64,000 nt of DNA, taken from positions 4,533,545 through 4,597,544 of the forward strand of contig BFEA01000041.1 of assembly GCA_003427395.1 (NCBI GenBank). The letters run 5' to 3'. Of the stretch, positions 6,013 through 63,072 are shown in pieces (within the stretch, counting starts at the first letter, position 1; each line of letters begins with the position of its first letter). The stretch comes from Chara braunii (taxonomy: Eukaryota > Plantae > Charophyceae). The translations under genes and the position numbers were made by a program. Under the pieces are notes generated by a model that was given only the letters and a program-made list of their open reading frames with translations, was not told the DNA's origin and did no database searches.

Positions 6013-6277
6013 TGTGACCGCGCCAGCTTCCGGACCTGCACCATCTTCAACCCCCCCCCTTTTTTTTGTGATCTTTTGCAACCAGAACAAAGAGGCCCCT
6101 TTTTGTGTTTTTATGAATCGATGCGCATTACTCGTAATCAAAGAGGCCTGCCCCTTGTCATTCTGGTCGGTTTTTGGAATTCCATTTTTCACAAATTGGG
6201 AAATACATGGGAATCACGCGTGCCTTAGCGAGCGCGCTGGGGATTTGGCTTGATGGTTAGGAATTCCGGAATAAGCG
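6013..6277 (+). repeat. Truncated 5' LTR of element A
   Basis: Near-identical to 11155-11423 up to ...aataagcg. Confidence 0.9.
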
Positions 6278-7239
6278 TGATGAATGTTGCTTTTCAAAAC
6301 TTCGTGCGAAAAACGCGGCTGGCGCAAAGCATTATTAATTATTGTGTGATTGTATATATGGATTATATTCTGGTATATTCGAGTACCTACGAAGGGCATG
6401 TGCAACACATTGAATGGACATTGCACACATTGAAGGACGCTGGATTTAAGGTGGCTCTCGAGAAGTGCTAGTTTTTCCTCACGACAATTGGCCGCGTGGT
6501 TACGGACAAGGGTTTGCAGCCAGAGCCTCAGAAGGTGGCAGCCTTTAAGGACGCACTGGTGCCGACATCAGTGACACAACTTGGGGGCTGACATCATACT
6601 ATCGGAGGTTTTATCAAGGGGTTTGCAGCGATTGCGAGGCCACTCACGAACTTGTTAAAAAAAGATCAGCCGTTGATCTGGACCCCGCAGTGCGATTGGG
6701 TCGTTCGAGAACTTAAGGCGACTCTGATCTCGGCCCCGGTCCTCATAAGACCGGACCCGGAAAAGCCTTTTGTCCTCCTCACCGATTGACAGCCCGAGGT
6801 GATCTCAACGATTTTGGCCCATGTGGGACCTGATGGCTTGGAACACATGGTGGAATACGCGTCCAAATCGATACCTACCTGCAAGCGGAACTACTTTGCT
6901 CCAATGGGAGAATGCTACGCGACATTGTGGGGAATCAGTCACTTCCGAGCCTATTTATATGGCCGGAAGTTCACATTGGTAATCGATCATGAACCATTGC
7001 TGGCCCTGAAGAAGTCCAAGGATTACTCGGGTATGATAGGACGATGGGCCACTACATTGCAGAACATGGACTTTGACATCCGCCATCGGAAACACGAGAG
7101 ACACGGCAACGCGGACGGACTGACACGACTGCACCGACCCGACAAAATACCCAACAGTGAGGAAGTGACACCGTGGCACGACCCGGAGGCGAAAAACGAG
7201 CCTCGGTACGGTAAGGTGGAGATCCTTCTGAAGAATTGA
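6278..7239 (+). pseudogene. pol: pol fragment: RT C-terminal half plus RNase H
   Basis: CVIVYMDY (decayed YxDD), ALEKC, YYRRFIKGF, TD.QPE, ECYA, DHEPL, HGNADGL. Contains stops and frameshifts. Confidence 0.9.
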
Positions 7240-7272
7240 GTGGATACACACACTCTCTCTCTCTCTGGAACC

Positions 7273-8975
7273 ATGACGCCCCCTTCTTCTTCTTCTTCTT
7301 CTCTCAACCCCCCGCACTCAGACTTTTTTGCCAATCTCCCTGACAAATTCTGTTATTTCTGCACATGTATCACACGGGTTTATGGGGTAGACTGTTATCC
7401 CTATGAGACTCGATTCACTGACTGGGTATATTGCGCCATATGTGTCAACCGTGCGCATGGCGCGTGTGTTCGATATCGAACGAGTAGTAAGGCATGGAAG
7501 TGTCGTCTGTGTCGAACGGATAAGCTTCCTATAGGGGTTCGATTCGAGGCTGCCAGAACTGACGTTCCCGAATACGGCGAAAAATACCGCAGGGCTGAAG
7601 TATGGACGAACAAGATATTACTGGCTAAATTAGTTGGTTAACCATTAGACCATCTTACTAAGCATGACAGACGTCGAGCAACGGAGAGGTCATGAGATTA
7701 TCAATGGATCAACGGTCATCTGGAAACGTGTAAAACCGACGGATCGGGATTATGGTTGACGGTTCCCCATCCATTTCAGTGATACGACTGGACCAAATTT
7801 GCGCACGAGGAGCAAGCTGCTCAATTTGTTATACGCGTCACCGAAGCAGCCATCGATCAGAATCGATGGTTCTGGTCTAACATTTGTGACGATGTTAGGC
7901 ACGTGGTTGCCAATTGTCTAGTCTGTGCTGCCGATCCTGTACCTAGCTGTGGGCAAAATACGATAGTTCCGACAAAAGTAGAGCGTCCTTTTCAACAGGT
8001 CGGTATGGACACGACAGACATTGACGTGCCACCTGATCCCAATCGTTGTGAATATTTCATTCTCTTGGTGTTAATCGAGCACTTCTCGAAATATATTGAA
8101 GTCTACCCCTGTAGAACATGTAAGGCCTCCGAAATAGCTAAATACATCGACCGATTCCTCAATACCCATCTGGATACAAAAGAGATTCTAACCGAGAATG
8201 GGTCCGAATTCAAAGTCGAGGTAGATGAATTACTGATGTGTCGTGGCGTTACCCTCCGACACACCGCTCCCCATGTCTCTCAGTCCAATGGGATGGCCGA
8301 GAACGCGAACCGCATGATGAAAACCGCTCTTCGCAGAAACTTAGCGGCCAATGACACGCGTCCTTGGCCCGAGATAGTGTATCAAATCATCGGGATCCAT
8401 CGAGCGACCCCTCATTAGTCCACTGGATTCACCCCCTTTCAGCTTCGAACAAATAGTATCCCATATGTCGACAATCGAAGTGTCTCGGAAATCGCCGAAA
8501 CAGGGGAAAGGGACACGCGGTCGGCTCTCAAGGCCAAGGCTAAGCGGTATGCGGAGTTAATGGAAAAGACTATCCCTAGGCTAGCCCGAAAAAGGCAGAA
8601 AATGACTGAACTAGCCCACAATAGGCGGTCCGTAGTTACGAGGCCCGGAATGAGAATGCAGACCCACAACACCAGTATAAGTTAGGGGACCTAGTGCAGG
8701 TACGTAAGTGTGCACGCGATCGAAAACTCGCTCCCAAGTTTTTTGGCTGCTTTCGCGTAGTGGAACTCGGCCCTAACGGAGCAAATACTGTGTACATCGC
8801 TCCTAAGACCGGCGCCTGCCATAACTCTCTTCCTATTGTCCGCCATACCTCCTACCTTCGCCCTCTCCCGCCCTCTGAGGACCCTATCTCGCCTTAGTCC
8901 TCTTTTTCCAGCCCAGACGAAGACCTTGCTTCCTCCCCTTTGTCTGATACTGCTTCTCCTCGACCTTCGCCATGA
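7273..8975 (+). pseudogene. PHD-finger/integrase ORF of element A
   Basis: PHD at 7351-7512 (CYFC..WVYCAIC-x4-H-GAC..WKCRLC), in frame with a decayed HHCC (AHEE..CLVC), a DDE core (MDTTD, LTENG, SNGMAE) and a GPY/F-like region (KLAPKFFGCFRVVE). Several premature stops. Confidence 0.85.
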
Positions 8976-9441
8976 GTTTCGCCATCGAACCGGCCCTTCC
9001 TGCGCAGCTTCTTCAGCCTCAACCTTCGTTGCAGTTTCGCCAAGTCTCGCATCCTTCCTCCGGTTTGCGCAACTGTTCAGCCACCGAGCCTGGTGCGCAA
9101 CTGTAGAAGTAACGATTTCAACAGAGTTGGGAGCAACGATCATCTTGGTGGAAGCTTCAGCGTTCGTGCGATTCTCCTAGCCTAATCAGAGTGATGTAAC
9201 GGTGATCGTCGCCTTCAGTGGTGATCTGTGCACTATCAGCTTTCAATGACGCAACGCGGTGGTCACCAGCCTCTACGAGTGGGGGAAGGCGTTGGTGGCA
9301 GATTGGCGGCAGCGACTGGCCCGGCCAGGCCGACAAGTAGTGGGGGCCGACTGTATCGATACTTTTTCTCTCCGAACTAGTAGCACTGATCCCCCATCTC
9401 GTCCCCTTCCCCCTCTTCGTCCTTACCCTTTGCGCAGATGA
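8972..9441 (+). pseudogene. Accessory ORF X1 of element A, unknown function
   Basis: MSFAIEPAL..RQVSHP..LRFAQLFS..TSLYEWGKALVADW..DCIDTFSLRTS is homologous to 59099-59509. One frameshift and two stops. Confidence 0.7.
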
Positions 9442-10243
9442 ATGGCTTCTCGACCTTCTCCCTCCCTTCTAATCTTCCAACTCTCTAGCCATCTTGGGCC
9501 GATCCCCTTCTAACCTTGGAGATTCGCCCCGCCACGATCCCTACCTTCTTACGTCCGCAAGTGGACTGAATTCACGTCAGTTAGCGTGTGCATGCTAACG
9601 GTGAGGTGTACGTGGGTTCGATACTACAACAATCGGGAGCTGGAGATCTATAACGAGATCTCGCTAGTGCTAGCGCAGGAGTGGTCGACAGAGACGGAGA
9701 CCTGTGGCACTTTAGTTGGACTTCTTTGTGGAGAGATTGCTGAAGGAGGTAGAGCGACGGTCGCCTACGAGCTCCTCACTTTCATGTCCTAGCTCGTCGA
9801 CGATCCGCCGACGAACATCATCTCCTTCAATCCAAGCGATCCTAGCCAAGCCGAGCCTGTCACATTGGAGAGGACGTTGACGCCAACAGTAATTTGGGGG
9901 AACTGTACAGAGGATTTCTGTCAATACTTGAGCGATCACAATCCCATGGTTTGGCGCTATCTGGACCTGGACGATCTTGCGCTGGATAATTCCGACCTAA
10001 ACGGTTCTGGAACGCTCATCAGGCACACCGCGAGGTGCCATCGGACGACGATCCGGGACGCATAGCCATCGCGGGTCTGTCAACGGAAGAAGAGTCGAAA
10101 GCCATATCAACGTCGAAGGAAGAAGAGGAGGCATCAACACCCGAGCCCTGAGAGGCTCCGCTGGCCCGAGCGCCACCTGTTGGATGGGAAGGATCTGCTT
10201 TGAACCCCGAAGTCCCTACTGACGTCGCCAGTCGACACGATGG
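9438..10243 (+). pseudogene. Accessory ORF X2 of element A
   Basis: MNGFSTFSLPS..SVCMLTVRCTW..QEWSTE..LVDDPP..RTLTP..YLD plus an acidic tail. Homologous to 59506-60456. Confidence 0.7.
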
Positions 10244-10833
10244 CGCAAAATCCTTCCGCTGCCACCACCGCTCTTGCTCACCATCTCCCTCCTCATCCAC
10301 CCCCTTCGCACTTCGTCCCCGTCCTCCTTCCCGGACAAGCCCTCCGACCTCGTCCAATCTACCACCGCCCTCTTGATTATCTCTCATTCTCTCCTCTTCC
10401 CCACATCGAGTTCCCTCCAAACTACCACATTTTCGCCAACCAGCTCTTCTGCCATCACTTTGCCGTGCGACTCTTATGCAAAGTCTTCCCTCATCGCTCC
10501 CCGTCCTTCCCTCTCAACATCCTTCTCTTCAGTGTCGCCTGGAGATAGTACAACCATATGAAGTTGTATTGCATCGTCTCCGCGACCTTTCCCGCAGTAG
10601 AGGACTATGAGTCCCTATGCGATAATGCCCTCCGCACTATCCCTACCCTGTATCCCGACTACCTCCTCTCTCTCTCCCGACCAAACCATCAATTCCCTCG
10701 AGCGCACCGAATCGTCCACTTTGTCGATCTCGGTGACGAAGCATCCGACTACTTCCCTCCGCTCCCAGCTGAATGGCCTAGACTTCTCCTCAACCCTCTC
10801 CTCATCAGTTACCGCCGAGCGGACTTTCAGTGA
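10240..10833 (+). pseudogene. Accessory ORF X3 of element A
   Basis: LRPRPIYHRPLD..LLFSVAWR..YCIVSATFPAVE..TLYPDYLLSL..FPR..PPLP is homologous to 60453-61042. One internal stop. Confidence 0.75.
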
Positions 10834-11154
10834 CTGAGCAGAAGCAGGCAAGATCGGCGGACCGTGATGGTGTCATTTGGACGACCGCCGCCAATCAAGG
10901 AGGCAGGAAGTTGCACATGACAGGGCTGGATGGTAGACGTCCTGAAAGAACGAGCCAGCGGATTCGCGAAGACACTGCAATTGAAGTTGGCATCAACATG
11001 GACTCTGGCCCGATCTAGTGCTCATACATCTTGATACGCTCGGTTCCTCATTCATCCCCTCGCCCCCTTCTTCCCCCTCCACCATGTACACTTGTTTTCA
11101 TGCATGCAATCAGGAGATCGCATAATTTTGGAACCCCCTTAGCGTCACATATTA

Positions 11155-27459: not shown

Positions 27460-30400
27460 GGATTTGGATTTAAGGTTTCTTAATGTTAACGGTCTGACCA
27501 CAGCCGATGCACTCACGAGAAGAGCGATCATAGAACAATTTCAAGGTGTAGGAGGAAGATTATCGCCGGATCTGATATGTATACAAGAGACTCACCTCAT
27601 GGACTCTCCAGCTCATAATCGAGCACACAATCTGATATGACCCCACCAGAGGTTCCAAGCCCACGCAACACATAACGAATCTGCAGGGGTAACCATATGG
27701 GTTCCTCCGAACTCCAAGGCGGAGGTGATTCATTGGGAAGCAAATCAGGAGAACGGAAGATGGGTTTCAGCACTGGTAATGTTGGAAATAAAAATTGTGT
27801 GCGTATTTAATGTATATAGTCCGAATGAGGTACAAGAACGCAAACAATTCTTTAATGATATTCATAGTCATATACCGAATGGTATCCCAATTATAATGGC
27901 TGGGGATTTCAATGCGGTACCGGATAGATGGCTGGACAAATGAAAAATTATGTCACCATGCCCTGCCTATACAGAGGAGGACGAAATGATTATCTAACAA
28001 CTATGTGTAGCCAAAAATCTATATAACACGTACCGCAAGTTTTTTCCACAAGAACGATTATTCGCGTGTATTAGGAACACGGGTGTTCCCAATCAATCTA
28101 GATCTAGAATAGATTTAATACTCATGTAAGAGGATTTAGATCATGCACTAGTAGGGTTAAATATCTTCTTGCAAAGTCTGTGGCCAGGAGCAGATCACAA
28201 GATGTGTGTCATTTTACTGACCTTTAGGGAAAAACCGGATAGAGGAATAATTTTTTACAAACTCAACTCCTCCCTCTTAAAAAGAACGGACTTTAAAAAT
28301 TACATTCAAGATGTATGGAATATTGGCAAACCACGAAAGATAAGCAGGAATCATACATTTCCTGGTTCAACTGTGGGCTATGCTTCTTAGCAAAAAAATG
28401 CAACTAATTTTCAAAAATAGTTGTTAAACGGAGACAAGAACAAGAAATAAAGATTTATGAGAAAATACTTAAGCACGAACAAGAGGATAATTCGGGAACC
28501 ATACAACCATCAGAAGACATACTATAACTCAATAATCAACTCTTCACCCTAACCCAAAACAGGGGGCAATGTTATCTCATCAGAAGTAAATTATCCAGAC
28601 ACCAGTCAGAAGGTCAAATGAACTGCTCTTTCTTTGCCGTTGCTGAGGTACGGGGGTTAAAATGACGAATATAGAAGCTCTAATTGATCCCTGGTTTTCC
28701 CCACACCTGGACCCGGTCGCATCGGTTAGTAGCTTAAAGTAGCTTACGATTTTTTCAAAAACCTCTAATACATCCACGATTGATCCTCCCATACCGGACC
28801 AAGAAACAAGGAACTTCCTGGAACCTCTTACACAGAAATTAACTCCATAACAAAAAGAAAAATTGGATGCTCCAATCACCAAAGAAGAAATATGGACTGC
28901 CCTACTGCAAATGGATGAAGACAAAACCCCAGGGATAGATGGTCTGCCCAAGGAGTTTTGGGAGGTCATATGGGCAAACCTGGCAGAGGATCTCATGGAG
29001 TACTACAAACAGGTTCAGGAATCAGGATGTATGGAAGAGATTGTGGGTCAAGGAATTCTAACCCTTTTGTACAAAAAAGGAGATAAGACAAACATAAGGA
29101 ATTATAGATCAATCACTTTATTAACTGTGGTCTATAAAATGTTAGCTAAGGCCATAGGTAACAGATTCATTCCTGTAATGACCGACATTATTCACGCCAC
29201 TCGAAAAGGGTTTATTCATGGGAGAAATATACAGGATAATGTGTTGCTGATCAATGAAACGATTAAGTTATCGAGATAGAATCAGAGCAACGCGGCCTTT
29301 GTATTTATAGATTTCGAAAAGGCATACGATCATGTTGACAGACGTTTTCTGGAAGCATGTTTAACTAAATTAGATTTTAGACCTAAAATGAGGAGATGGA
29401 TCCAAATCCTGCACTCAAATGTCACTACCAGGGTTCAAGTGAATGACTTACTGTCGCCAAAGATCCCTCTTCAAAGATCAATTAGGCAGGGAAATCCCTT
29501 AACTCCCTTCCTTTTCGTTATCATCATGGAAGCGTTAAGAGTAAACTTGAAGGAAAACCCTAACATTCAGCGATTGAGGATAGGCAACCTTCCTAAAGAG
29601 GCGATTCCAATCTACTCCATATTTGCGGATGATTTGACAATCATGATGGAGGCCTCCAAAACTAATTTCGAGGAAATTAAGGCAATAATGGATATATTTT
29701 CGACCTTATCGGATATGTTAGTCAATTCGGGGAATAAAACATTGGGTTGGTGGATTCATTCACAAGGGGCGAGACCTCCAGAGCTTCCTAAGATCAAATG
29801 GGTCCCTTTAAAGCACCCATAAGGGTGTTAGGGATAATTCTCACATCACAAAGGAAGCCGAACTCTAATGATATACGGATTTATTCTTCGGCGCTGGAAA
29901 AAATGAAGGTATGGAAGAATAAACACACTTCAATCTTTGGAAGAGCACTGATAATTAATAATGTGGTGTAGGCTTCAATTTGGTACAAATCATTGTTTTG
30001 GCCTTTGAGTAGGAAACCCACAAAAGATATACAAAGACAACTTTCAGCCTTCCTTTGGCGAGGAATCACGAATTACCACATGTAATTCCAAGAGTTGCTT
30101 GGAAGACTTTAATCCAGCCAAAGACCAAAGGAGGGATTGGACTTATTGACCCAAAAATACAGTGTCAGGCTTTGGCTCTTCAAGTGGTTAAACGTTTAAT
30201 TCTAACTACAGACATTCCATGACGGGATCTGACACTGGAACAGATTCGTAGATTGACACCTCAAACCACGGAGGAAGTACATCCTCTGACATGGGTAGAG
30301 GATAGATATTGGTCTATTCCTCATACCCGAATGCATCACACCGACACAGGGGCGAGAGGTGAGGCCAAGAAGGATCTTAGACTAGACAGTTTTTGGGCTA

Positions 30401-50640: not shown

Positions 50641-50858
50641 CCCGTCAGGGTTGTGCTTTCCCCCCCTGAGAACATTTTTCGTCGTTGTTCGCTATACTGT
50701 CGTTGGAAGGCTGGGAAAACAAGGTATGGCAGTTTAGGGGGTGGCGGCATCTTATTTGAAACTGCAGGACCGGTAGCTGCCCCGTGGGACCGCACGGGTT
50801 TTGGTAAAAAAATCGAAACGGGGCCAAAGCAGCAGCGGGCGCACCCGTTGCCTCACAT

Positions 50859-53158
50859 TGTGACGAACCAATTTCTGTTCCGCGCGTTCCGCGCGATTTT
50901 CTCCGCGATAACAATGAGGGGTCCTAAGATGGGAAGGTTCGGCCAATTACGGGAAATCGGGATCGAAGGGAAATTGCATCAGTGTCCTCGCTTCTTCGTC
51001 TTCTTGCGTCGCTTCTTTTCAGATGGCTGGGTTCAGGTCTGGGCAAGTTCTGGGATGATCGGTTGAGAGGCGCGCCGATGTGCACGCGAGTAATAATGGT
51101 TGACGTCATCTCTTTTTGTTTTGGCTGTCGGAATTTAAGCGCGGAGATCGCGCGGGAATTTTGCTTCGTTCTTTTTTAATTTTCTTTTAAATTCCTTTTG
51201 AATCTTGTCAAGCCTTGACGGCTCTCGAAACTTAGGATTTTCTTCTCGAAATTTGTGCTTTTTGCGTTTTCGCATTAGATAGGAATTTTGGAATTAAGGA
51301 TTTCATTTTGCCGCGCAACGCCTTTTGCTTGCGCGCTTCTTTTTGCGGCTGCAATGGAGCTTTGATTAGTCGGCACCCTTAATCTTGCAAGTAACCGTAA
51401 TTTTGGGCGGACGCCATTGTAACTGTATCTTTCTTCTTGAGCTTCGTCTTTCCCGCTCTCTCTCTTTCCCTTTTGCTGTGCCTAGTTAGCCCGCGGCCTG
51501 CATGCTCGGATCGATGCGTGGACTCCGTGGAGAGTGGCTACGTCCCCCACGCCACGGTCTGGTCATGCAAGACGTAGGCGCTCCCTCTCCTAATCTCCTT
51601 TCTAAGTCCTTGCAATTCTGTGTTCTTCGCGCTTGCATGCACGCTATAAATTTCGGTTGCACGATTAGATAGCTCCCTTAACCAGTTGCTGGAAGCTCGG
51701 GGTAGCGCGATCAGTGAGGGTTGCGCGGGGTTGACGTGTGGGGCTACGACGGACTGTAACGCGTGGGCGAACCTGACGGGTGTAGGAAGACTATGCGGGG
51801 TGACGACTTCGTGGGTTGGTGCGTGATGACAGACTATCCGCATCAGAGAGAGAGGAAGAGGAAGAGAGAGCTGAGGTTGACGGGCGTGGATTTGCAATTT
51901 TCTTTGTCTTTTCCTTTAGTTTGTATATAAGTTTTGATTTCGGCTCGAGCGATTCGCTCTCATTTCCCTTCGGCATCTTTGTTTCAATACTAGTCCTTGT
52001 ATGATGTCTCGTTCTGTCTCGGTCCTCCCTCTTTTGTGTGTATGAGACGAACTAGCTGAGATGGAATGATATGTTTGTCGAATTTGCCTAGTCATCATCG
52101 TTGATTTTTCACTGTGATCCGCTGATTGATGTGATATGAGTTCTGATTATTGTTGCGATGTCTGGTGTGTGCTGACACCTTGCATGCTCGGAAATGACTA
52201 CTGAATGATTAGATGATTGGATAGTATCCAGGATACGTGACGATTTTGCATGAGGGATCAAGTTCTCATTTAGGTAGCCAAGAGGCCCGGGTGCTAGCGA
52301 ACACCTCGTGTGGATACGTGTAAGCGCGATCTGAAGCGTGCTGCCCACACGTGTCCACACGCGGCGAGTCGCGATCGTGGGGAACCTGGCACCTCCGGTA
52401 TCATGATAGGCGAGGAATTCCCCACTATGTCGCAATGACAAGATGTCGGATACATGGGACTCAGGGTACTTCGAGCCTTGGGAAGAAAAAGAATATCGTA
52501 GGCGAAGATGCCCGGAATTCCCCTGCCTGACCGAGAACAGATTGTGCCCCAGGGAGTTCCACTGCGCCGTAACCAGTGATCCAAGGTGCCCCGATTACCC
52601 GACTACGTATAACACGCAATACTTCATATCCCTTGGCTTCGTCGTTATCGCTACCAATTTCCCTCCCTTCCGTCTCCTCCTTCCGTATAACCAACTCACG
52701 GTGGTACCGTGGAATTCCATCGCCCCACACTGGCCCCGCATGCCGTGCAGGAATTGCAGACGACGCGGCCACCGCCGAACCCTTGGAACTTCGGAACCCA
52801 ATCATAACGCGCGGGGACAGACGCCACGTGTCTGCACCCGAAGGTCCGACTCATAAGAATCACGACCATCACGGACGGGCCTCTCCCCGAACCGCCGCCC
52901 CTAAAACAGACGGATTGGACGGCCCTGGATGCACCACGCATTCCATCTGCCTTATGCTGCACGACATCGACCGCCATCAGATCGGAAGTAACTCGCCCCT
53001 TAGCTCTATTGAATCTATGCCCATGAACCCTTGCCACAAGAGATCTCAGTTCCGACTTGGGACTCCACCCCCACTTTCCCCAAAAATCCTTGGCACACCC
53101 CTTTTCGCACTTCCAAGCCCTCATCCCACTCCGATCAGGAAGTCGCGACGGGCGTGAG
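50859..53158 (+). repeat. 5' LTR of element B (~2.3 kb)
   Basis: Matches 61292-63072 up to 52616. The right end is inferred from the PBS and a degenerate GGGCGTGA end without the terminal CA. Confidence 0.75.
52443..52856 (+). CDS. 137-aa LTR-embedded Cys-rich ORF, unknown function
   Basis: Open ATG-to-stop frame with protein-level similarity to 12663-13150 and a CRNCRRRGH motif. Confidence 0.6.
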   Translation: MSDTWDSGYFEPWEEKEYRRRRCPEFPCLTENRLCPREFHCAVTSDPRCPDYPTTYNTQYFISLGFVVIATNFPPFRLLLPYNQLTVVPWNSIAPHWPRMPCRNCRRRGHRRTLGTSEPNHNARGQTPRVCTRRSDS

Positions 53159-53160
53159 GT

Positions 53161-53173
53161 TGGTATCGGAGCC
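53161..53173 (+). promoter_or_regulatory. Primer binding site, initiator tRNA-Met type
   Basis: TGGTATCGGAGCC versus the canonical TGGTATCAGAGC, 145 bp upstream of the gag ATG. Confidence 0.8.
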
Positions 53174-53305: not shown

Positions 53306-56300
53306 ATGAACGCTAATCAACAGAACCCGAATCCCCAACAGAACCCCAACCAACCGATAAATCCTAATCAACCCGCACCACGAGCACGAGCTCCCATGAC
53401 GCCACCCGATCTCTATCTATTCGATCCTGCACATCACCTTGTTGGAGCATGGTTAGCCACGCTCCAGGCTCAGCAGTATGATGATAATGAGGCACAAGTG
53501 AACATTCCCACTCGATTGGGGGGAGATGCCCATCATTGGTTCAACACCTATGTATGGGTGGACCTCCCGACATTCGAGCGAGACTTCCTAAACCGATTTG
53601 ATTATATTCATCCAAAACAAACCCTTTTTATGATCAAAGATCGAGTCCAAAAACCCCTTGAGTCTGTCCCCGAGTATCGAAACCGATTCTATAGGATGTT
53701 TGTGAAAACAGAACCGTGACGAGGCGAACAGGTAGGCAGAGATGTATTCATCGACGGACTTTACGGACGAACGATGGGGGCGAAACAGCGAAAACAATTC
53801 TCCCACATCAATCACACTCTGCAACAGATCATGGAAGCCGCAAAAGAAATGGAATGATAGTTCGCTGCAAGTTTCCTAGAAGGGGAAGACTATCCTAGGG
53901 AAGGAGACTCGTCCGAAATAGCGAGAGTTAAAGCTGAGTTGGCCGCACTTCGGAACAAATTTGAAAACATGGGGTTTGTGTCGGGCCCCGTCACCTATCT
54001 GGAACAGATTCGTCCCAAACGGCCGGTCTCGAGTGTGATTACAAGCATGCCCGTTCCCGTAATGACAACACCCCCGCCTCCGATCGAAAGTCCCCCACGA
54101 CCGAATGAGTCTTCCGCCCTATTGGAACTAACCAAGACACTGGTTACTCTAATTCAGGAAAGCGAAAAGGAACAGCAGGAACATAATGCTCGAATAGAGG
54201 CAATGATGAGGTCGATGCGACCAATAGCGGTGCGTGCCGCGCCGCTTCAACACGGACTGGCTCCGACACCCCCTCCCGCAGGGATCCCTTAGGCTGGTAA
54301 TCTGAACGTCTGTTATACGTGTCATCAACCAGGACACATAGCCCGAGATTGCCCCCATCGACCTCCGCAGCCGCAAGTCGAGGCTGCACCTGTAGCAGCA
54401 GCACCGATCGCTAACGGGCCGGGACAAATAAGGGCGCTGATGGAAGAAATGGAAGGAGGTGGAAACACATTACCTACAATGGAGGAAGCTGCTGAACTAA
54501 TCTCGTTGGATCAGTACGTAACGCTCAGACATCCGAGGCTTGGGATGATTGGAGCGATTAGACCCGCGCCGGAACAAAGGGAAGTGGCGGAACGACGACC
54601 CTCTCCCGGAGAGAGGAGTCGGGAGGACCCACCTTCGTCACTGGGGAGATCCATCTTTTGAACATTGTTCGAGCCTTAGATCATCGGATTCCTCTTCCGA
54701 TTGGTCATTTACTTTCGATATCGGAACAAGCCAACGAACGGATGCAACATGGCAAGGCGAATCGGTGCCCGGACAGCGAACACGAAAGCAAAAAGTCCAA
54801 CACAAGACGAAAAAGTTGTCGGCATTTCAGACCCAATACGACTAGGATTAATCCAAAAGGAAGACCACTTCCTACGAATTAAACCAATCCCATGGAAATC
54901 CACAAAGTGCGACATCGAGATATGGGGAGTCCCGTACAATGCCATTATCGATTCTGGAGCCGTTGTTTTGGCTATCTCATTACGGGTAGTCGAAAGGGCC
55001 GGAAGAAAGAACGATCTGATCGTGCTTGCGAAAAAAGATCAGCTCGTTTCAGCAGACGGAGAGCAAATTAAAACAGTGGGACGGATGACCAATGTTGCCG
55101 TCCGATCAGGAAAAATGCATGCTTTAGGAGACATCGTAGTTTTAAACGTAAACACTTACGACGTCCTTTTTGGACTTCCCGCTCTTGTGGCCTTGCGAGC
55201 CAATCTGAATTTCGGGAGGTGATCGATTGTCCTCTGGAATATAGGAGGAAAGCCCTATGTTGTACCTATGAGGCTAACTCTTCGAACCACGACTAATGTA
55301 ACCCCGCGAGTTTCTCCAATAATGGTGGGAACTCTTCGTGTGATTACCTGGGATAACTCTGCCGACGGTGAGCAATCTCTGAAGGACAGGACAACAGTGA
55401 CGAGGACGATCCAGCAATTTTGGGAATGGCACAACAACGTACCTATTACCCTGTGCAACGGGCAAACACGAAATTACTAAGCCTGACTGACCAAAGTCTA
55501 CAAAGAACGCAAGCCATGATTATGGGTGAACCCCTCGTGCAGATTTCGAGGATGGTCGATTCTTTGGAACCCCCTCGAACCCTGTACGAAGGTATCTCCC
55601 CTTTATTCGTACGATATAATGACAAAAGGCACTACTGCGACATCACAAATCTCCCTCGATCTCTTTTGTCAACTGCAAAAGAGATACGATTGATACGCTT
55701 GGGGGCAGAGACCAATTGTTTGGAACCCCCTGAGCGCCTCGAAACTGGACTCGGAATCAAAATCGCAATGAAACCTATGCCATGGCAGGACATCCAAGAC
55801 GGAATAACGTCGGAAGAACACGTGGCCATTCGGGAGCAGGACGCACAAATGATGGTCACGATATTCTCCTGGCGATCGGATAATTCGTTTATTTCCGCGC
55901 CCCTACCTGAAAGCGCTAAACGGGTAAGTACAAAACAGATCGATGTACGGATATGGGATCAACTGTATGAATTGCACGTGCCTCAATACGTACCTGATGA
56001 AATCCATCACCTAATCGCGGACATTTTGAAGGAATACAAAAGAGTGATTAGTGTGACGGACACAGACATCGGACTGTCGTTAGTCATACAGCACGAAATT
56101 CAGACCGGAAACCATCCCCCGATCCACTGTAAGCCCTACAAGTATTCCCTGGTGGAACGAAAAATGGCCCTTCAGCGAATTCGGGAATTTGAAGCTAATG
56201 GTTGGATCCAACCGGCTACTGGGCCATGGTCATTCCCGGTAGTATTAGTGTCGAAAAAGAACGGATCGATTCGCATATGCATTGATTATCGCAAGCTGAA

Positions 56301-57545
56301 TGACATCACGATTAAAGATGTATACCCCCTTTCCCGGATTGATGATTTGCTTGATGCGATTGGGTGTGCCAATTATTTTAGTAAGTTTGATATCCGTCAC
56401 GACTTCCATCATATCCAGGTTAAGGAGGAAGATCGGCCGAAAACGGCCTTCGTACTATTTGAGGGCACGTGGCAGTGGGTCCGGTGTCCGATGGGTATTT
56501 GCAACGCGCCTGGCAGCATGCCACGTTTCAGCTGGCGATGAACGTGACGTTCCAGAACTTCGTCAACAAGACGCGGCTCACTCAGGGGATGATTAACTTC
56601 TGCGTCATCGTGTACATGGACGACATCCTCATCTACTCGGAGACCTATCACGGGCATGCAGAACATATCGAGTGGACGGTGGGAGCTCTGAGAGATGCTG
56701 GGTTTAAGATCGCACTCGAAAAGAGCGAGTTCTTCCTCTCGAAAATCTCGTTCTTGGGTTACGTGGTGACACGTGGAGGATTGCGGCCAGACTTGAGGAA
56801 GGTCGCGGCGGGGAAGGATGCTCCCATTCCCATGACATTGACGCAGGTTCGTGCTTTTATGGGACTGGCGTCGTACTATCGTCGCTTCATCAAGGGCTTC
56901 ACCGCAATTGCGCGACCTCTAACAAACTTACTGCGGAAGGACCAGCCCCTCAGCTGGGACGCAGAGTGCGAACGGGCCTTCGCCACCCTCCAGGACGCCC
57001 TGGCGACAACACCGATTTTGATCTGGCCGGACCCTACGAAGCAGTTCATTCTTATCACGGACTGGCAGCCAGAGGCTATCTCCGCTATTCTAGCGCAAAA
57101 GGGGAACGACAGCCGAAAACACGTCATCGAGTACGCATCATGCACAGTGCCAGACGAGCGGAGGAACAATTCGGCCCCGCAGGGCGAATGTTACGCAGTG
57201 GTCCGGGGGATTCAACACTTCCATCCGTACTTGTATGGCCAGAAGTTCCTTTTTGTAACCGATCACGAGTCATTACTGGCTCTCAAGAACTTGAAGCTCG
57301 CTACATAAATGGGTATGATTGGACGGTGGGCGGTGCGCCTACAGGAGTACGACTTCGACATCATCCATCGAAAGACAGAAAGGCACGGCAACGCGGACGG
57401 CTTGACATGTCTGCATCGCCCCGCTAAGGTACCTAAGGGCGAAGAAATCATTCCGTGGAAGGAACCAGAATCAGCGAACGGACCCAAGTACGGACAAGTG
57501 GCAGTCCTTCCACGTGGCAAGAAGCAGGCGATTGGCAATCAATGA
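53306..57545 (+). pseudogene. gag-pol: gag-protease-RT-RNase H polyprotein, frameshifted
   Basis: Gag (HWF..FERDFLNRF..QKPLESVPEYRNRF), knuckle CYTCHQPGHIARDC (54311-54352), protease IIDSGA, RT (WSFPVVLV, RICIDYRKLN, KTAF, PMGICNAP, YMDD), RNase H (ITDWQ, GECYA, TDH, NADGL), then a stop. Confidence 0.93.
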
Positions 57546-59102
57546 CAGAGGTAAACTTGTGAATGCCCTCTCTCCCCTCTCATCCTCATCTCTTCTCTCC
57601 CTACCCCACAAATTTTGTTATTTTTGCGAAGCAATTTCGCACGTCTACTCGGTCCCTATGCGTCCTAGTGGGGAGGGATATGCAGAATGGATAGATTGTC
57701 GGCAGTGTGTCGCACGAGCCCATGGCTCGTGTATCCAGTACATAAATAACGATAAGCCTTGGTTGTGTTCCTTGTGTCGGCTTGATAAGATCCCGACCGA
57801 GGCTCGATTTTTTGATGCCACGTCCGTAGGGTTGGAAAAGACCCGAAAGTTTAGACGGGCCGAGGTATGGACGAATATCGCTCTAATAGCTACCTTGGTA
57901 GGAAACCCCCTCCAGGACTTCACTAAAGAAGACCGGAGGAGGGCCAATGAAAGGGCTCAGGACTATCATTGGAACGAGGGCCGGTTGGAAAAATGAAAGA
58001 CGGATGGTAGTGGGATCTGGTTGGTAGTGCCGCACCCGTTCATGAGGTGTGACTGGGTTAAGACGACGCATGAGGAAACTGCAGCCCATTTTGCCGTACG
58101 GATCACGGAAGCGGCAATCGATAAAAATGAATGGTATTGGTCCAACATTTGTGACGATGTGAAATTCATCGTCGCGAACTCCCAGGTCTGCGCTGCTGAC
58201 AAGGCGTCGATTCAGCCGCCAAGATCGATAGTGTCGACGGTAGTCGAACGACCTTTTCATAGGGTTAGCATGGATACTACCGATATTGTGGTGCCCCTTG
58301 GACCTTATAGCTGCGAATATTCAATCCTACTGGTACTTATAGACCACTTCTCAAAATGGATCGAGGCATTTCCGTGTCGTACGCGACAGGCAGCTGAAAT
58401 TGCGCGATACGTCAACCGGTTTTTAGGGATGCATCATGACATAGAGGAGATCCTCACCGATAATGGGGTAGAATTTAGAGAGGAAGTTTTAAGGAATCTG
58501 GTCGTACATGGCGTCGCCCTTCGGAACATTGCACCCCACATGTCACAGTCTAACGACCTGGTAGAAAACACGAATCGGGTGATAAAGACAGCATTGCGAA
58601 CGAAACATCGTGGCACAGGATCTGAGGCCCTGGCCCGATATCGTAGATCACATCCTGGCGGTCCATCGGGGAATGCCTCACGAATCGATGGGCCTTCTAG
58701 CCCCTTCCAATTACGAACCAATAGCGTAGCTTGTGTCTCGATACCGAGCATCCCCGATGAATCTTCATCGAACCGGCGGCCCACAAGAGCCACGGTTCGG
58801 GACAAGGCCAAGTGGCATATGGGGAAATGTGCTCGCCAAGGGAAGATAGCGCCACGATTCTTCGGGCGATTTCGTGTGATTGAGCTCGGCCCGAACGGGG
58901 TGAACACCGTGTGCCTCGTGCCGGAGGTCTCGGGAAGCTGATCGGCATGGCCGATCGTCCACCACGTGTGCTATCTACGTCTTCTCCCTTCCTCTCCATC
59001 TCCAGTTGTGTTTGCTTCCTCGACGACGACTCTCTATCGCTCTCATCCCCCCCTTCATCTCTCGCCCCTTCTCACACCCCGTCCCCATCGCCATCGCCAT
59101 GA
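57542..59102 (+). pseudogene. PHD-finger/integrase ORF of element B
   Basis: PHD at 57616-57777 (CYFC..WIDCRQC-x4-H-GSC..WLCSLC), then THEETAAH..SQVC, MDTTD, LTDNG, SNDLVE and KIAPRFFGRFRVIE. Confidence 0.87.
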
Positions 59103-59509
59103 GTTTTCTCACCGAGCGAGCTCTCGGCGATCACATGTTGGCGCCGCGTGGCGACATTTCGGCAATTCGGCAAGTTCGTCATCCGCGGCTCAGTCCAGAT
59201 CTGCTCCGACTCGCGCAGTTCTTCAGCACTACCGGGGTGTACGCGGCGGCAGAGTTCTAGTTCACGGGCCATCGTCAAGCGGTCGTGTTGGCAGAGGCGA
59301 CGGCGGTTCGACAGTTGTGAGCATCAGGAGTTAGGACGTCGCTAAGGGAGTGGGGCCAACAGCTGGCAACGGAGTGGAATCAGTGGCTTACGCGCCGCGG
59401 CGACAATCTTGTCCCCACAGATGGCATCGACGCCGGAGGGCTTCGAACGTCTCGGCACGAGCCGGCGGTGGTGCTCCCTGAGCTTGTCCCTTTCCAGCAC
59501 CCCCAATGA
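59099..59509 (+). pseudogene. Accessory ORF X1 of element B
   Basis: ATG and final TGA in the same frame with two internal stops. Homologous to 8972-9441. Confidence 0.7.
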
Positions 59510-60456
59510 ACCGCTCCCAGCTCTCTACCTTCGCTCTCCCATCTCTCTTCGCTACCTTCTGGCAATCTAACCTTTGCCCCCGTCTCTCCTTTCGTCTGGA
59601 ATCACTCGTTGTTCCCCTCCTCGATGGAAGACAGTGGGAACGGTGGTGCGGACACTTCGTCAATCTTTCGGTATGTCTGGTCGGAGTACAGCTGACGTGG
59701 ACGAGGGACATAGAGCACCGCGCCGGGAGCGAATACCTGGAGCTGTTGATCATCCAAGCTTGGAGGACGGAGGTGGAAGGAGACCTCCTCGGATTTCTGT
59801 CGGGATCGGTGCGACCCGGCCATCGACAGCTGATCGTACAGGAACTCACGATTCCCCTCGCGCAGCTGGTCGACGATCTCCCTCGCGATTTCGCTTCGCA
59901 GAGTGACGAAAGTCTAGTCCCGCACGTCCTTTCACGAACTCTAACGCCCCACCTGCAGTGGTCGGCCTGCCTCGAGGAGCAGGGCAGTGACAGTAACCCG
60001 CCATCGCAACGAGAATACCTGGACCCACGGAGGATAATCGACCTCGCCTTCTTTCAGCCTCCAACGACCTCCGAGGAAGAAGTGCTAACGCTAGAGGAGG
60101 AAGAAGAAGAGAGCGAGGGAGATGACGACGAGGAAAAAGGAGAAACCCCAGAAGAAGGGAGTTACAGCGAGCATAGAGAGGGAGAACAGAGCGAGGAGGA
60201 GGAAGAAGACGAGGAACAAGAGGAGTGTGAGTGGGAAAGCGTAGGCGAGGAGGCGGGCCGCGCAGAGACCCAGGAGGAAGATCCAGAGGCGGTAGCGCCG
60301 CGCAGAGAAGAGATCGCGGTCGATAAGCAGCCGCTAGAGTACGCGAGTGGGACGGATCTGCCAATCTCGGACGATCCAGCCAAGGATCCGGAGCCACCCA
60401 AGCCAGAGGATGGGGACCTTGCTGCCGAGACTTCGAGCGCACCAGCCCGACGGTGA
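59506..60456 (+). CDS. Accessory ORF X2 of element B (316 aa, folded-looking N-terminal domain plus Glu-rich tail)
   Basis: Uninterrupted ORF whose first ~180 aa align with 9438-~10000. Confidence 0.75.
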   Translation: MNRSQLSTFALPSLFATFWQSNLCPRLSFRLESLVVPLLDGRQWERWCGHFVNLSVCLVGVQLTWTRDIEHRAGSEYLELLIIQAWRTEVEGDLLGFLSGSVRPGHRQLIVQELTIPLAQLVDDLPRDFASQSDESLVPHVLSRTLTPHLQWSACLEEQGSDSNPPSQREYLDPRRIIDLAFFQPPTTSEEEVLTLEEEEEESEGDDDEEKGETPEEGSYSEHREGEQSEEEEEDEEQEECEWESVGEEAGRAETQEEDPEAVAPRREEIAVDKQPLEYASGTDLPISDDPAKDPEPPKPEDGDLAAETSSAPARR

Positions 60457-61042
60457 CGAAGCCGATCCCCCTCCCCCTCCCCCTCCGCCCGTCCACCAGT
60501 TCGAGCTCGTACCGATGCGGGGCATCGGGCTCCGTCCCCGGTCCTTATCCCGTCGTCCCCTTGACCACCTCACCCTGCGCCAGATCACCACCCGCATCAC
60601 CTTCCCCCGCAATCCCTTTCTCATTGACACCTTCCGCTTTTTTTATGTCACCCGTCTTGCTGTCACGGTTCATCCCCANCCCTCTACNCGGTGTGCCACC
60701 CCTGTCTTCTNTCTCCANGCCCTTCTCTTCAGTGCCGCGTGGCGAGGCCACAACATCATCGAGGTTTACTGCATGATCACGGGGACTATCCCCGCATGCG
60801 AAAACCACGATCACTTCCGCACGACACTCTTCCCAACTTTCACCACCCTCTACCCCGACTATCTCGCATCCCTTCCTCATAGTGGTAATCGATTCCCTCG
60901 CTTTCATTGGATCATCCGATATCAGGAGCTTCCGGTGACAGTAGCGAGAATGGAGAATTTCCTACCCCCGCTCCCGACTAACCCACCCCCTCGCCATGCC
61001 CCCATGTATCGTCTTCCCTTTCCTCTTCCCGTCAGTCATTGA
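60453..61042 (+). pseudogene. Accessory ORF X3 of element B
   Basis: LRPRSLSRRPLD..LLFSAAWR..YCMITGTIPACE..TLYPDYLASL..FPR..PPLP. Start inferred, with a frameshift in a C-run. Confidence 0.72.
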
Positions 61043-61291
61043 TGCATGGTTGATCGGCGCGTGCCTCGACGATGGCACGTATAATCCCCTCCTTGGATTG
61101 AAAAGAGTCCTTCCTGAGGAATTTTTAGGAGAGAGTCACGTTTACCACAATGGATGACTTCCACACTCCTTCGCACGGTTGGTGGCAACGTAGAAAGCTC
61201 CGCGTGTCGATCGATTAGGGAGATCAACACGTGTCGTAATGACAAGCAAGCAGGAGCTTGCTTAAGATTGGAACCCCCTGGGCGTCACATA

Positions 61292-63072
61292 TGTGACGAA
61301 CCAATTTCTGTTCCGTGTGATTTTCTGCGCGATAACAATTAGGGGTCCTAAGATGGGAAGGTTGGTCCAATTACGGGAAATCAGGATCGAAGGGAAATTG
61401 CATCGGTGTCCTCGCTTCTTCGTCTTCTTGCGTCGCTTCTTTTCGGATGGATGGGTTCAGGGCTGGGCAAGTCCTCGGATGATCGGTTGAGGGGCGCGCC
61501 AATGTGCGCGCGAGTAATAATGATTGACGTCGTCTCTTTTTGTTTTGGCTGTCGGAATTTAGGCGCGGAGATCGCGTGGGAACTTTGCTTCGTTCTTTTC
61601 AATTTTCTTTTAAATTCCTTTTGAATCTTGTCGAGCCTTGACGACTCTCAAAACTTACGATTTTCTTCCCGGAATTTGTGTTTTTTGCGTTTTCGCATTA
61701 GATAGGAATTTTGGAATTTGGAATTTAGGATTTCCTTTTGCCACGCAATGCCTTCTGCTTGCGCGCTTCTTTTTGCGGCTGCAATGGAGCTTTGATTAGT
61801 CGGCGTCCTTAATCTTGCAAGTAAACGTAATTTTGGGCAGACGTCATTGTAACTGTATCTTTCTTCTTGAGCTTCGTCTTAACCTCTCTCGCTTTTTCCC
61901 TTTTGTTGTGCCTAGTTAGCCCGCGACCTGCATGCTCGGATCGATGCATGGAGAGTGGCTACGTCCCCCATGTCGCGGTCTGGTCATGCAAGACGTAGGC
62001 GCTCCCTCTCCTAATCTCCTTTCTAATTCTTTGCAATTCCATGTTCTTCGTGCTTGCATGCACGCTATAATTTTCGGTTGCGCGATTAGATAGTTCCCTT
62101 AACCAGTTGCTGGAAGCTCGCGGTAGCGCGATCAGTGAGGGTCGGCTCACGAGCGAAGTAAGGGGTAAGTTGAAGTGGGAGTCGGGCGACCCGACGAGCT
62201 GGTGCCGAATGCGCGGGGTTGACGCGTGGGGCTACGACGGACTGTAACGAGCGGGCGAACCTGACGAGTGCAGAAGGACTAAACGGGGTGACGACTTCGT
62301 GGGTTGTGGTGCGTAACCACGGACTGTCCGAATCGGAGAGAGAGGAAGAGGAAGAGAGAGCTGAGGTTGACGGGCGTGGATTTGCAATTTTCTTTGTCAT
62401 TTCCTTTAGTTTGTATCTAAGTTTTGATTTTGGCTCGAGCGATTCGCTGTCATTTCCCTTCGGCATCTTTGTTTCAATACGGGTCCTTGTATGATGTCTC
62501 GTTCTGTCTCGATCCTCCCTCTTTGGTGTGCATGAGACGAACTAGCTCCGATGGAATAATATGTTTGTCGAATTTGCCTAGTCATCATCGTCGTTTTTTC
62601 ACAGTGATCCGCTGATTGGTGTGATATGAGTTCTGATTGTTGTTGCAATGTCTGGTGTGTGCTGACACCTTGCATGCTCGAAAATGACTACTGAATGATT
62701 AGATGATTGGATAGTATCTAGGATACGTGATGATTTTGCATGACGGATTAAGTTCTCATTTAGGCAGCCAACAGGTTTGGGTGACCTCGTGTGGATACGT
62801 GTAAGCGCGATCCGAAGCGCGCGGCCCACACATATCCACGCGCAGCGAGTCACGATCGTAGCGAACCTGGCACCTCTGGTATCAGGATAGGCGAGGAATT
62901 CCCCACTATGTCGCAATGACAAGATGTCGAATACATGGGACTCAGGGTACTTCGAGCCCTGGGAAGAAGAAGAATACCCTGCCTGATCGAGAACTGATTG
63001 TGCCCCAGGGAGTTCCACTGCGCCGTAACCAGTTATCCGAGGTGCCCCGATTACCCGACTACGTATAACACG
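61292..63072 (+). repeat. 3' LTR of element B, truncated or interrupted
   Basis: Colinear with 50859-52616 with substitutions and indels. Similarity stops abruptly after ..cgtataacacg. Confidence 0.92.

What the first reader, a model, noticed from the sequence alone, without database searches (positions are those of the whole stretch)
57542..61042. Operon-like Gypsy element: ORFs chained by overlapping ATGA stop/start junctions
Seen in element B: the RNase H stop overlaps an ATG (ATGA 57542-57545), the integrase tail overlaps X1 (ATGA 59099-59102), X1 overlaps X2 (ATGA 59506-59509) and X2 overlaps X3 (GTGA 60453-60456). The diverged element A has ATGA at the homologous IN/X1 (8972-8975) and X1/X2 (9438-9441) junctions. 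In both elements these ATGs start alignable N-termini (MSFLTERAL/MSFAIEPAL; MNRSQLSTFALPS/MNGFSTFSLPS) although the flanking DNA is not conserved. The RH/IN (7273) and X2/X3 (10240) junctions in A are degenerate and need an indel to fit. Two B junctions (RH/IN and IN/X1) also need one frameshift in low-complexity DNA. Known: AUGA overlaps drive coupled termination-reinitiation in caliciviruses and translational coupling in bacteria. Inference: this nuclear retrotransposon makes up to five proteins from one RNA by serial reinitiation. I know of no description of this for LTR elements.
Basis: partly seen in the sequence, partly recalled or inferred. Interest (0 to 1): 0.9.

Follow-up and report, generated by a model that had tools for sequence, protein, structure and literature searches.

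The report
Five-gene stonewort retrotransposon, chained reading frames
These are decayed copies of an abundant jumping gene of the alga Chara that splits integrase off as its own gene and carries three extra genes, two joined by overlapping stop/start codons; the three are likely read from one RNA by ribosomes slipping past weak start codons, as in some plant viruses.

Summary
The window is Chara braunii DNA with two decayed Gypsy elements.

The integrase/X1 and X1/X2 ATGA junctions are real and family-wide. They are in register in A, in other copies, and (X1/X2) in B.

The other two B junctions are private mutations. The GTGA at 60453 is a premature stop: X2 runs to 60564, and X3 starts at a strong AUG inside X2 (60410; 10240 in A). 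The ATGA at 57542 is absent from every laid copy, which instead carry AUGnnUGA with the AUG in the integrase frame.

Corrected layout: Gag-PR-RT-RH | PHD-like+integrase | X1 | X2 | X3.

Out-of-frame AUGs are depleted only in X1+X2 (P 0.014 and 0.004 against synonymous shuffles), X2's AUG is weak, X3's is strong, and no TURBS motif is present. This favours leaky scanning, as in tungro/badnaviruses, over five-step serial reinitiation. Restart at the RNase H and integrase stops stays possible. No translation or transcript-end data exist here.

The scan noted a stand-alone integrase before, in fungal Gypsy elements on other DNA (unchecked here).

The parts
50859..53159 (+). Element B 5' LTR (starts TGTGAC; 3' end approximate)
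   Evidence: 92.8% identical to the 3' LTR over 1714 aligned nt, K2P 0.076
53161..53172 (+). Primer-binding site of B (initiator-Met type; that label is recalled)
53306..57545 (+). ORF1 of B: Gag (zinc knuckle)-protease-RT-RNase H, decayed (8 internal stops, 2 frame breaks); ends at TGA 57543-57545
57538..57545 (+). RNase H / integrase junction: AUGnnUGA in other copies; B's ATGA 57542-57545 is private to this copy and out of the integrase frame
57538..59102 (+). ORF2 of B: PHD-like C4HC3 finger (~57607-57780), integrase zinc-binding and core domains, Ser/Pro tail; broken by stops, a frame break near 58599 and deletions near 58823 and 59021
59099..59102 (+). ATGA integrase/X1 junction (real; B's tail is out of register through its own deletion)
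59099..59509 (+). X1 of B (136 codons here with 2 stops; longer in other copies); no known family
59506..59509 (+). ATGA X1/X2 junction (real, in register)
59506..60564 (+).
60410..61042 (+). X3 of B (210 aa): strong-context AUG inside X2, 155-nt two-frame overlap
61292..63072 (+). Element B 3' LTR; the match to the 5' LTR stops at 63072
6280..7239 (+). Element A RT-RNase H remnant, ends at TGA 7237-7239 (5' half deleted; LTR piece 6013-6280)
7273..8975 (+). Element A PHD-like + integrase frame; AUG 33 nt after the RH stop, same frame; ends in ATGA 8972-8975
8972..9441 (+). Element A X1, ends in ATGA 9438-9441
9438..10376 (+). Element A X2 (decayed, two frame breaks)
10240..10833 (+). Element A X3; strong-context AUG inside X2, 137-nt overlap

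Best explanation
B and A are decayed copies of an abundant Chara braunii Gypsy clade with five reading frames (Gag-PR-RT-RH | PHD-like finger+integrase | X1 | X2 | X3), and X1, X2 and X3 are likely translated from one RNA by leaky scanning. Shown: the frames, the ATGA joints at integrase/X1 and X1/X2, the AUGnnUGA joint at RH/integrase in B's family, the long X2/X3 overlap, coding-type divergence of X1-X3, and AUG depletion confined to X1+X2. Inferred: small subunits entering at X1 start at its moderate AUG, or slip to X2's weak AUG, or on to X3's strong AUG, as in rice tungro bacilliform virus. Entry is most likely by subunits that stay on after the integrase stop (which would explain why that stop is pinned on X1's AUG), or else from the 5' end of a shorter 3' RNA. 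Integrase itself is likely made by termination-reinitiation at the RH stop, since its frame is full of AUGs and follows a 1400-codon ORF.
For: AUG depletion: out-of-frame AUGs in X1+X2 are 4 vs 9.0 expected in B (P 0.014) and 4 vs 10.3 in A (P 0.004) under synonymous-codon shuffles. None of the 7 control regions is depleted (gag, RT-RH, PHD-IN, X3; P 0.245-1.0). Internal AUGs number 12 in 2573 nt vs 153 in 8413 nt of gag-pol-IN. Dinucleotide shuffles give P 0.088 and 0.016. One of B's six AUGs (59673) is absent from all laid copies. Met is 0.35% in the X2 folded domain (92 of 26132 residues) vs 1.1-2.3% in pol domains and 4.0% in Gag (related copies, not independent).

Start contexts: X2 has -3 C in A, B and 4 of 4 models (Pro before Met); X1 has -3 G in A, B and 3 of 3 models (Ala before Met). 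X3 has -3 A and +4 G in A and B; 146 of 177 models have residues compatible with that AUG-G and 168 of 177 with -3 A. X3's AUG is 134-152 nt before X2's stop.

Coding: A/B divergence is highest at third codon positions in X1, X2 (marginally) and X3. X2's N-domain folds with pLDDT 77, pTM 0.74.

Split pol; 0 of 26 models with the RH end continue into the finger.

Precedent: PMC5902531 section 10, read whole.
Against: No translation data. X1+X2 are AUG-poor but not AUG-free (6 in B, 8 in A, X2's start included), whereas RTBV ORFs I-II have none; decay could add some. ATGA joints are not needed for leaky scanning, and their conservation hints at stop-coupled restart. Only two DNA copies were counted in full, and the protein models come from one genome and were picked by similarity to X1/X2. 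The D-G test for X3's AUG cannot see the third codon base and is no stronger than other conserved Asp columns. One model (P0215) reads RH in frame into the ORF2 start, and A has RH and integrase in one frame, so a fused or frameshifted pol is not excluded. The entry point of ribosomes at X1 is not determined.
Confidence: 0.5

Rival explanations
1. Serial termination-reinitiation makes all five proteins from the genomic RNA, perhaps helped by an element-encoded transactivator like CaMV TAV.
For: Three of four junctions put stop and start within 8 nt. A low-complexity integrase tail stays open to the ATGA in A (bar one stop) and in P0129 and P0187. Precedents: caliciviruses, SART1, CaMV.
Against: X3 has no stop/start joint. 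No UGGGA upstream of 7 of 7 stops tested. No junction window folds better than shuffles (z from +0.65 to -1.51, 10 windows). AUG depletion in X1+X2 is unexplained. At 3-20% per step (PMC10275272), X2 would be made at under 1% of Gag (arithmetic). No TAV-like match was found for X2.
Confidence: 0.15
2. Each downstream ORF has its own RNA (internal promoters in the pyrimidine-rich tracts, or splicing), and the overlaps are only compaction.
For: Third ORFs of LTR elements are typically expressed from spliced messages (PMC5408684 passage; PMC7264820 part 1 of 3). Pyrimidine-rich tracts flank each start. In one RNA run, reads are sense-biased only from about 59870 onward.
Against: The CAG before A's X2 AUG is missing in B and in 4 of 4 models. 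The acceptor-like AG upstream of X1 in B appears not to be kept in P0129 (inferred from its peptide). No RNA joint was listed (low depth, 15 of 75 joint rows shown). Monocistronic RNAs would not need AUG-poor coding regions ending exactly at X3's start. An element with 2.3-kb LTRs shows little pressure for compaction (inference).
Confidence: 0.2
3. Integrase is not restarted but fused: a +1 frameshift at the stop ending RNase H (a Gly codon before UGA, a shifty-stop type; recalled), or a plain fused pol in the active elements, gives Gag-PR-RT-RH-PHD-IN. Only X1-X3 are polycistronic.
For: ORF2 is in the +1 frame and open upstream from 57406 in B. Fusion solves packaging of integrase (inference). 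P0215 reads through in frame. A has both domains in one frame.
Against: An in-frame AUG in strong context sits at the start of ORF2 in the laid copies and in A (7273). One group of 7 RNA reads shows the RH frame stopping 18 nt earlier (loose-end row). No listed indel reaches 30% at this junction. 0 of 257 models contain the finger joined to RH (biased sample).
Confidence: 0.12
4. The junctions are chance products of decay in dead copies.
For: Both copies carry many stops and frame breaks.
Against: MSF in 32 of 34 models and MN/MS in 12 of 15, across families down to about 40% identity. Same register in A and B, whose X proteins are 37-47% identical.
Confidence: 0.03

Closest known systems
Ty3/Gypsy LTR retrotransposons with sense additional ORFs between pol and the 3' LTR (Athila, Bagy2 env-like; PMC7264820, part 1 of 3 read)
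   Same: LTRs, PBS, Gag-PR-RT-RH-IN order, RT closest to Ty3 among solved structures (E 2e-33), extra sense coding region after integrase present in many copies.
   Different: Three extra ORFs rather than one, none with a transmembrane stretch or Pfam family. Integrase is in its own frame with an N-terminal PHD-like finger. No purine tract before the 3' LTR. Gag and pol appear to be one frame, with the break after RNase H.
Rice tungro bacilliform virus and badnaviruses (Caulimoviridae): leaky scanning through AUG-free ORFs I-II; family ORFs joined by short overlaps, sometimes fused stop/start codons (PMC5902531 section 10, read whole)
   Same: Three consecutive ORFs, weak or moderate AUGs first, AUG-poor upstream ORFs, fused stop/start codons, plant-type host, reverse-transcribing relative.
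   Different: Here the cassette lies at the 3' end behind gag-pol and integrase, in an integrating LTR element. AUGs are depleted, not absent. The last AUG lies deep inside the second ORF. No sequence kinship was tested or is claimed.
Calicivirus / influenza B TURBS termination-reinitiation (PMC10275272, passages)
   Same: AUGA-type overlaps; stop and start within 20 nt at three junctions.
   Different: No UGGGA motif upstream; the X2/X3 distance is far too long; mechanism untested.
SART1 and LINE-1 non-LTR retrotransposons (PMC5972666 and PMC5902531, passages)
   Same: A retrotransposon using stop/start coupling between long ORFs.
   Different: Non-LTR, two ORFs, UAAUG plus a downstream hairpin. 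No such hairpin stands out here.
Fungal Gypsy lineage with a stand-alone integrase ORF (earlier scan notes e1-7556600, e1-9902402; AI notes, unchecked)
   Same: Gag-PR-RT-RH in one frame and integrase starting at an AUG on or beside the RH stop.
   Different: Fungal, dUTPase-bearing, with no PHD-like finger or X1-X3 mentioned. Relationship to the Chara clade not tested; a sequence look-up found nothing.

Membership tests
Ty3/Gypsy LTR retrotransposon | Two LTRs flanking the coding region | tested here: met
   50859.. and 61292.., 92.8% identical over 1714 nt
Ty3/Gypsy LTR retrotransposon | Domain order Gag, PR, RT, RH, IN with Ty3-like RT | tested here: met
   Pfam; best solved match Ty3 RT, E 2e-33
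Ty3/Gypsy LTR retrotransposon | PBS next to the 5' LTR | tested here: met
   53161-53172; the tRNA identity is recalled
Ty3/Gypsy LTR retrotransposon | Polypurine tract before the 3' LTR | tested here: inconclusive
   No clear purine run in A or B; a short inverted repeat spans the boundary instead; both copies are old
Ty3/Gypsy LTR retrotransposon (textbook layout) | Integrase encoded in the same frame as RT-RH | tested here: not met
   B's family has a stop and a frame change after RH; A has a stop; one model is fused. This makes it a variant layout, not a different superfamily
Ty3/Gypsy LTR retrotransposon | Target-site duplication | not tested
   B's 3' LTR match stops at 63072; A's 5' end is deleted
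Chromovirus | Chromodomain at the integrase C-terminus | tested here: not met
   No chromo hit in the integrase ORF 57997-58938; the remaining tail is Ser/Pro low complexity
PHD finger | C4HC3 zinc-ligand pattern with profile or structure match | tested here: inconclusive
   Ligand pattern present in A and B; Pfam PHD E 0.04-0.22, below cut-off; weak Jade-1 PHD match, E 1.9; not folded
env-like additional ORF | Transmembrane segment | tested here: not met
   Maximum 19-residue hydropathy 1.0-1.5 in five X1/X2/X3 sequences
TURBS termination-reinitiation | Stop and start within about 20-30 nt | tested here: inconclusive
   Met at RH/IN (B family), IN/X1 and X1/X2; not met at X2/X3 (134-152 nt)
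TURBS termination-reinitiation | UGGGA motif upstream of the stop | tested here: not met
   0 of 7 stops within 120 nt; decayed copies, and 18S complementarity was not tested otherwise
TURBS termination-reinitiation | Downstream translation depends on upstream termination | not testable with these tools
   Needs reporters
SART1-type coupling | Stable hairpin downstream of the overlap | tested here: inconclusive
   Four downstream windows, z +0.43 to -0.88; old copies
RTBV/badnavirus-type leaky scanning | Upstream ORFs lack internal AUGs | tested here: inconclusive
   Depleted (P 0.014, 0.004) but not free of AUGs
RTBV/badnavirus-type leaky scanning | Suboptimal first and second start contexts, strong last one | tested here: met
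   X1 -3G/+4A, X2 -3C/+4A, X3 -3A/+4G in A and B
RTBV/badnavirus-type leaky scanning | One RNA carries all three ORFs, and downstream output falls when upstream AUGs are strengthened | not testable with these tools
   RNA depth too low, no long reads

The most novel reading that the evidence does not exclude
A nuclear LTR retrotransposon that behaves like a polycistronic pararetrovirus: five proteins from one genomic RNA, with restart at the RNase H stop for a free, PHD-guided integrase, restart at the integrase stop, and leaky scanning through AUG-purged X1 and X2 to X3, with no subgenomic RNA at all.
Probability: 0.3. Interest if true: 0.85.

Novelty: new variant of a known kind. Interest (0 to 1): 0.64.

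Why it matters
Reviews read here say LTR elements use frameshifting for gag-pol and spliced RNAs for extra ORFs, and they list stop/start coupling only for non-LTR elements and viruses. A Gypsy clade with fused stop/start codons, an AUG-purged three-gene cassette and a free integrase would carry the Caulimoviridae translation strategy into their integrating relatives. It raises a concrete question of how integrase is packaged when not part of Gag-Pol, and adds a candidate histone-reading finger at the integrase N-terminus.

Practical point: at least 306 Chara braunii 'hypothetical proteins' match X2 and are transposon products stitched by gene prediction, which matters for gene counts in a model for land-plant origins.

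Absence from print rests on paper searches. The Chara genome paper and a 2003 survey of gag-pol recoding signals were not held, and no supplements were read; these could already describe the layout.

Tried and rejected

Searches for related loci found nothing in viral contigs or metagenomes.

RNA: no RNA holder was listed. Run X5 gave only cross-hits at the Glu-rich stretch. X6 gave 599 reads, none 99% alike, on both strands over RH-X1 and sense-biased from about 59870, with no RNA joints listed. This was not used as evidence on expression.

A's RH/IN junction in other copies was unreadable because the tool skipped the repeat 7238-7309. The search for longer proteins holding the finger gave 3 hits, none fused to RH (weak).

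The second was good but had no Foldseek match at E<=0.001 in PDB or viral libraries, and best VIA Z was 5.8 (latherin, rmsd 3.6, 124 aligned; Aha1-N 5.6), within noise. X1 had no usable Atlas hit. X1 and X3 were not folded.

Rejected: GTGA 60453 and ATGA 57542 as junctions; A's X2/X3 as degenerate; the CAG before 9438 as a conserved acceptor; a TURBS motif; junction hairpins; env-like membrane proteins. P0258 is a chimeric model whose intact-looking RT-RH-IN belongs to another Gypsy family. PMC2864245 (passages), bioRxiv 2026.05.21.726589 (passages), bioRxiv 2021.11.30.470311 (passages) and PMC5009743 (passages) showed no such layout.

Full report
What the window is. The X2 protein has 306 relatives at E<=0.001, and all 120 listed are Chara braunii gene models, one identical to the window's own over 81% of the query. 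A full HMMER scan finds 192 representatives, and 10 of 10 looked up, among them distant ones, are also C. braunii. Element B has two LTRs (50859.., 61292..; 92.8% identical, K2P 0.076), a PBS at 53161, and Gag, protease, RT, RNase H and integrase domains in Gypsy order. Element A is a diverged, 5'-deleted relative (RH 61%, integrase 58%, X1-X3 37-47% amino-acid identity). Both are dead copies with many stops and frame breaks, so any single junction needs checking against other copies.

Junction X1/X2: real. ATGA is in register in B (59506) and A (9438). Models P0002 and P0131 read upstream in the X2 frame and match B's off-frame X1 tail, so the register is shared. Of 15 models that reach the X2 start, 12 have the Met, followed by Asn (5) or Ser (7), in families down to about 40% identity. 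Asn forces ATGA, and Asn/Ser exchange is one step only through AGY (inference).

Junction integrase/X1: real. A is in register, with one stop in the tail. B is shifted by its own deletion near 59021, where 19 contigs leave its sequence. P0129 and P0187 read the stretch in one frame in the ATGA register, assuming no predicted intron inside it. 32 of 34 models reaching the X1 start have MSF there. Thirteen bases around the ATGA are identical in A and B.

Junction X2/X3: not real as described. B's GTG 60453 is in a different frame from X3. The TGA sits in an Arg run: 112 of 154 aligned models have Arg there. 69 of 119 models run 28-44 residues further, 14 stop near it, 20 are other and 16 do not reach it. 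X2 really ends at 60562-60564 in B and 10374-10376 in A. X3 begins at an AUG inside X2 (60410; 10240) with A at -3 and G at +4 in both. 146 of 177 models have residues compatible with that AUG, though the third base cannot be seen. The overlap is 155 and 137 nt. A's junction is the true form, not a degenerate one.

Junction RNase H/integrase: split, but not by this ATGA. B's ATG 57542 is out of frame and reads six codons. Every laid record differs from B at 57542: 19 of 19 and 23 of 23 contigs from one sample, and 5 of 5 RNA reads. Only 40 of 519 difference rows were shown. These records carry an AUG at 57538, in the integrase frame and in strong context, five bases before the RH stop. In A, the RH stop is followed 33 nt later by an in-frame AUG; other copies could not be read across the repeat there. 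None of 26 models with the RH end continues into the finger. One (P0215) reads four residues into ORF2 in frame. The models were gathered through X1/X2, so this sample is biased. ORF2 starts with a C4HC3 pattern in both elements that scores only weakly as a PHD finger.

The extra ORFs are coding. A/B differences peak at third positions in X1 (0.49/0.32/0.79), X3 (0.37/0.29/0.57) and, marginally, X2 (0.64/0.47/0.66). X2's first 175 residues fold at pLDDT 77 without a clear structural match. None of X1-X3 has a Pfam family or a membrane stretch.

Mechanism. The new evidence is AUG usage. Between X1's start and X3's start, AUGs occur at 4.6 and 6.3 per kb, against 16-21 per kb in gag, pol and integrase. 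Holding the proteins fixed and shuffling synonymous codons, out-of-frame AUGs are 4 vs 9.0 (B, P 0.014) and 4 vs 10.3 (A, P 0.004), while seven control regions, including integrase and X3, show no deficit. Met is 0.35% of X2's folded domain across models against 1.1-4.0% in Gag-Pol domains. Start contexts run moderate, weak, strong. This is the pattern described for rice tungro bacilliform virus and badnaviruses, where ORFs I-II lack AUGs and ORF III is reached by leaky scanning, and where ORFs can have fused stop/start codons (PMC5902531 section 10).

Against five-step restart: X3 is 134-152 nt from X2's stop, whereas TURBS restart decays beyond about 30 nt (PMC10275272 passages). No UGGGA lies upstream of 7 stops, and no junction window folds unusually. 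Integrase is not AUG-poor, so scanning cannot reach X1 from the 5' cap of the genomic RNA. Entry must be either subunits retained after the integrase stop or a shorter 3' RNA. I favour the first slightly because it explains why that stop is pinned on X1's AUG, but this is inference. Integrase itself is likely made by restart at the RH stop, with a +1 frameshift or a fused pol as the rival. RNA reads were too few and too distant from B to decide.

Comparison with what is known. It is a Ty3/Gypsy element by LTRs, PBS, domain order and RT, with a variant layout. Extra sense ORFs after pol are known in plant elements but are described as single, env-like and sometimes spliced (PMC7264820 part 1 of 3). 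Stop/start coupling is reported for SART1 and LINE-1, and one review states that LTR elements use frameshifting instead. Nine paper searches found no LTR element with this layout, but the Chara genome paper and the 2003 recoding survey were not held and no supplements were seen. Two earlier scan notes describe a fungal Gypsy lineage with a stand-alone integrase starting on the RH stop. They are unchecked leads and were not counted as support.

Verdict. Observation partly confirmed: two of four junctions are real, one is real in another form, one is an artefact. New variant of a known kind; interest 0.64.

Noticed in passing
window 57607-57780 and 7345-7520: PHD-like C4HC3 finger at the N-terminus of the integrase frame in both elements; Pfam PHD only E 0.04-0.22. 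A candidate chromatin reader in an unusual place.
   Followed up: partly
window 61282-61298, 11142-11161, 50850-50865: No clear polypurine tract; a short inverted repeat (GTCACA..TGTGAC) spans the internal/3' LTR boundary in A and B, and a similar half-site precedes B's 5' LTR. Plus-strand priming is unexplained.
   Followed up: no
window 53306-57545: Gag, protease, RT and RNase H seem to lie in one frame (breaks near 55370 and 56540 look like decay), so the element's only programmed break is after RNase H.
   Followed up: partly
window 59506-60030: X2's N-terminal domain is confidently modelled (long beta-sheet wrapped on a helix) with no clear structural match; best Z 5.8 to latherin/Aha1-N-like folds.
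   Followed up: partly
window 59868-60660: In RNA run X6, reads here are mostly sense (e.g. 13.5 vs 0.23 at 60448-60563) while RH to X1 has both strands about equally; few reads, one run, none identical to B.
   Followed up: no
window 6013-6280 vs 11155-11426: Element A has lost its 5' half: 268 nt of LTR start are joined straight to the middle of RT.
   Followed up: no
window 63073 onward: B's 3' LTR match stops at 63072 and other sequence starting TGT follows, probably a nested insertion.
   Followed up: no
window 27641-29822: Decayed LINE-like remnant: endonuclease (E 2e-4) and RVT_1 (E 1e-12) hits; a repeated 236-nt piece at 24059 and 26936 lies upstream.
   Followed up: no
protein set P0001-P0258: Chara gene models join RT, RH, X1 and X2 pieces of this clade through inconsistent predicted introns, and at least one (P0023) carries unrelated reductase domains; such models inflate the annotated proteome.
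   Followed up: partly
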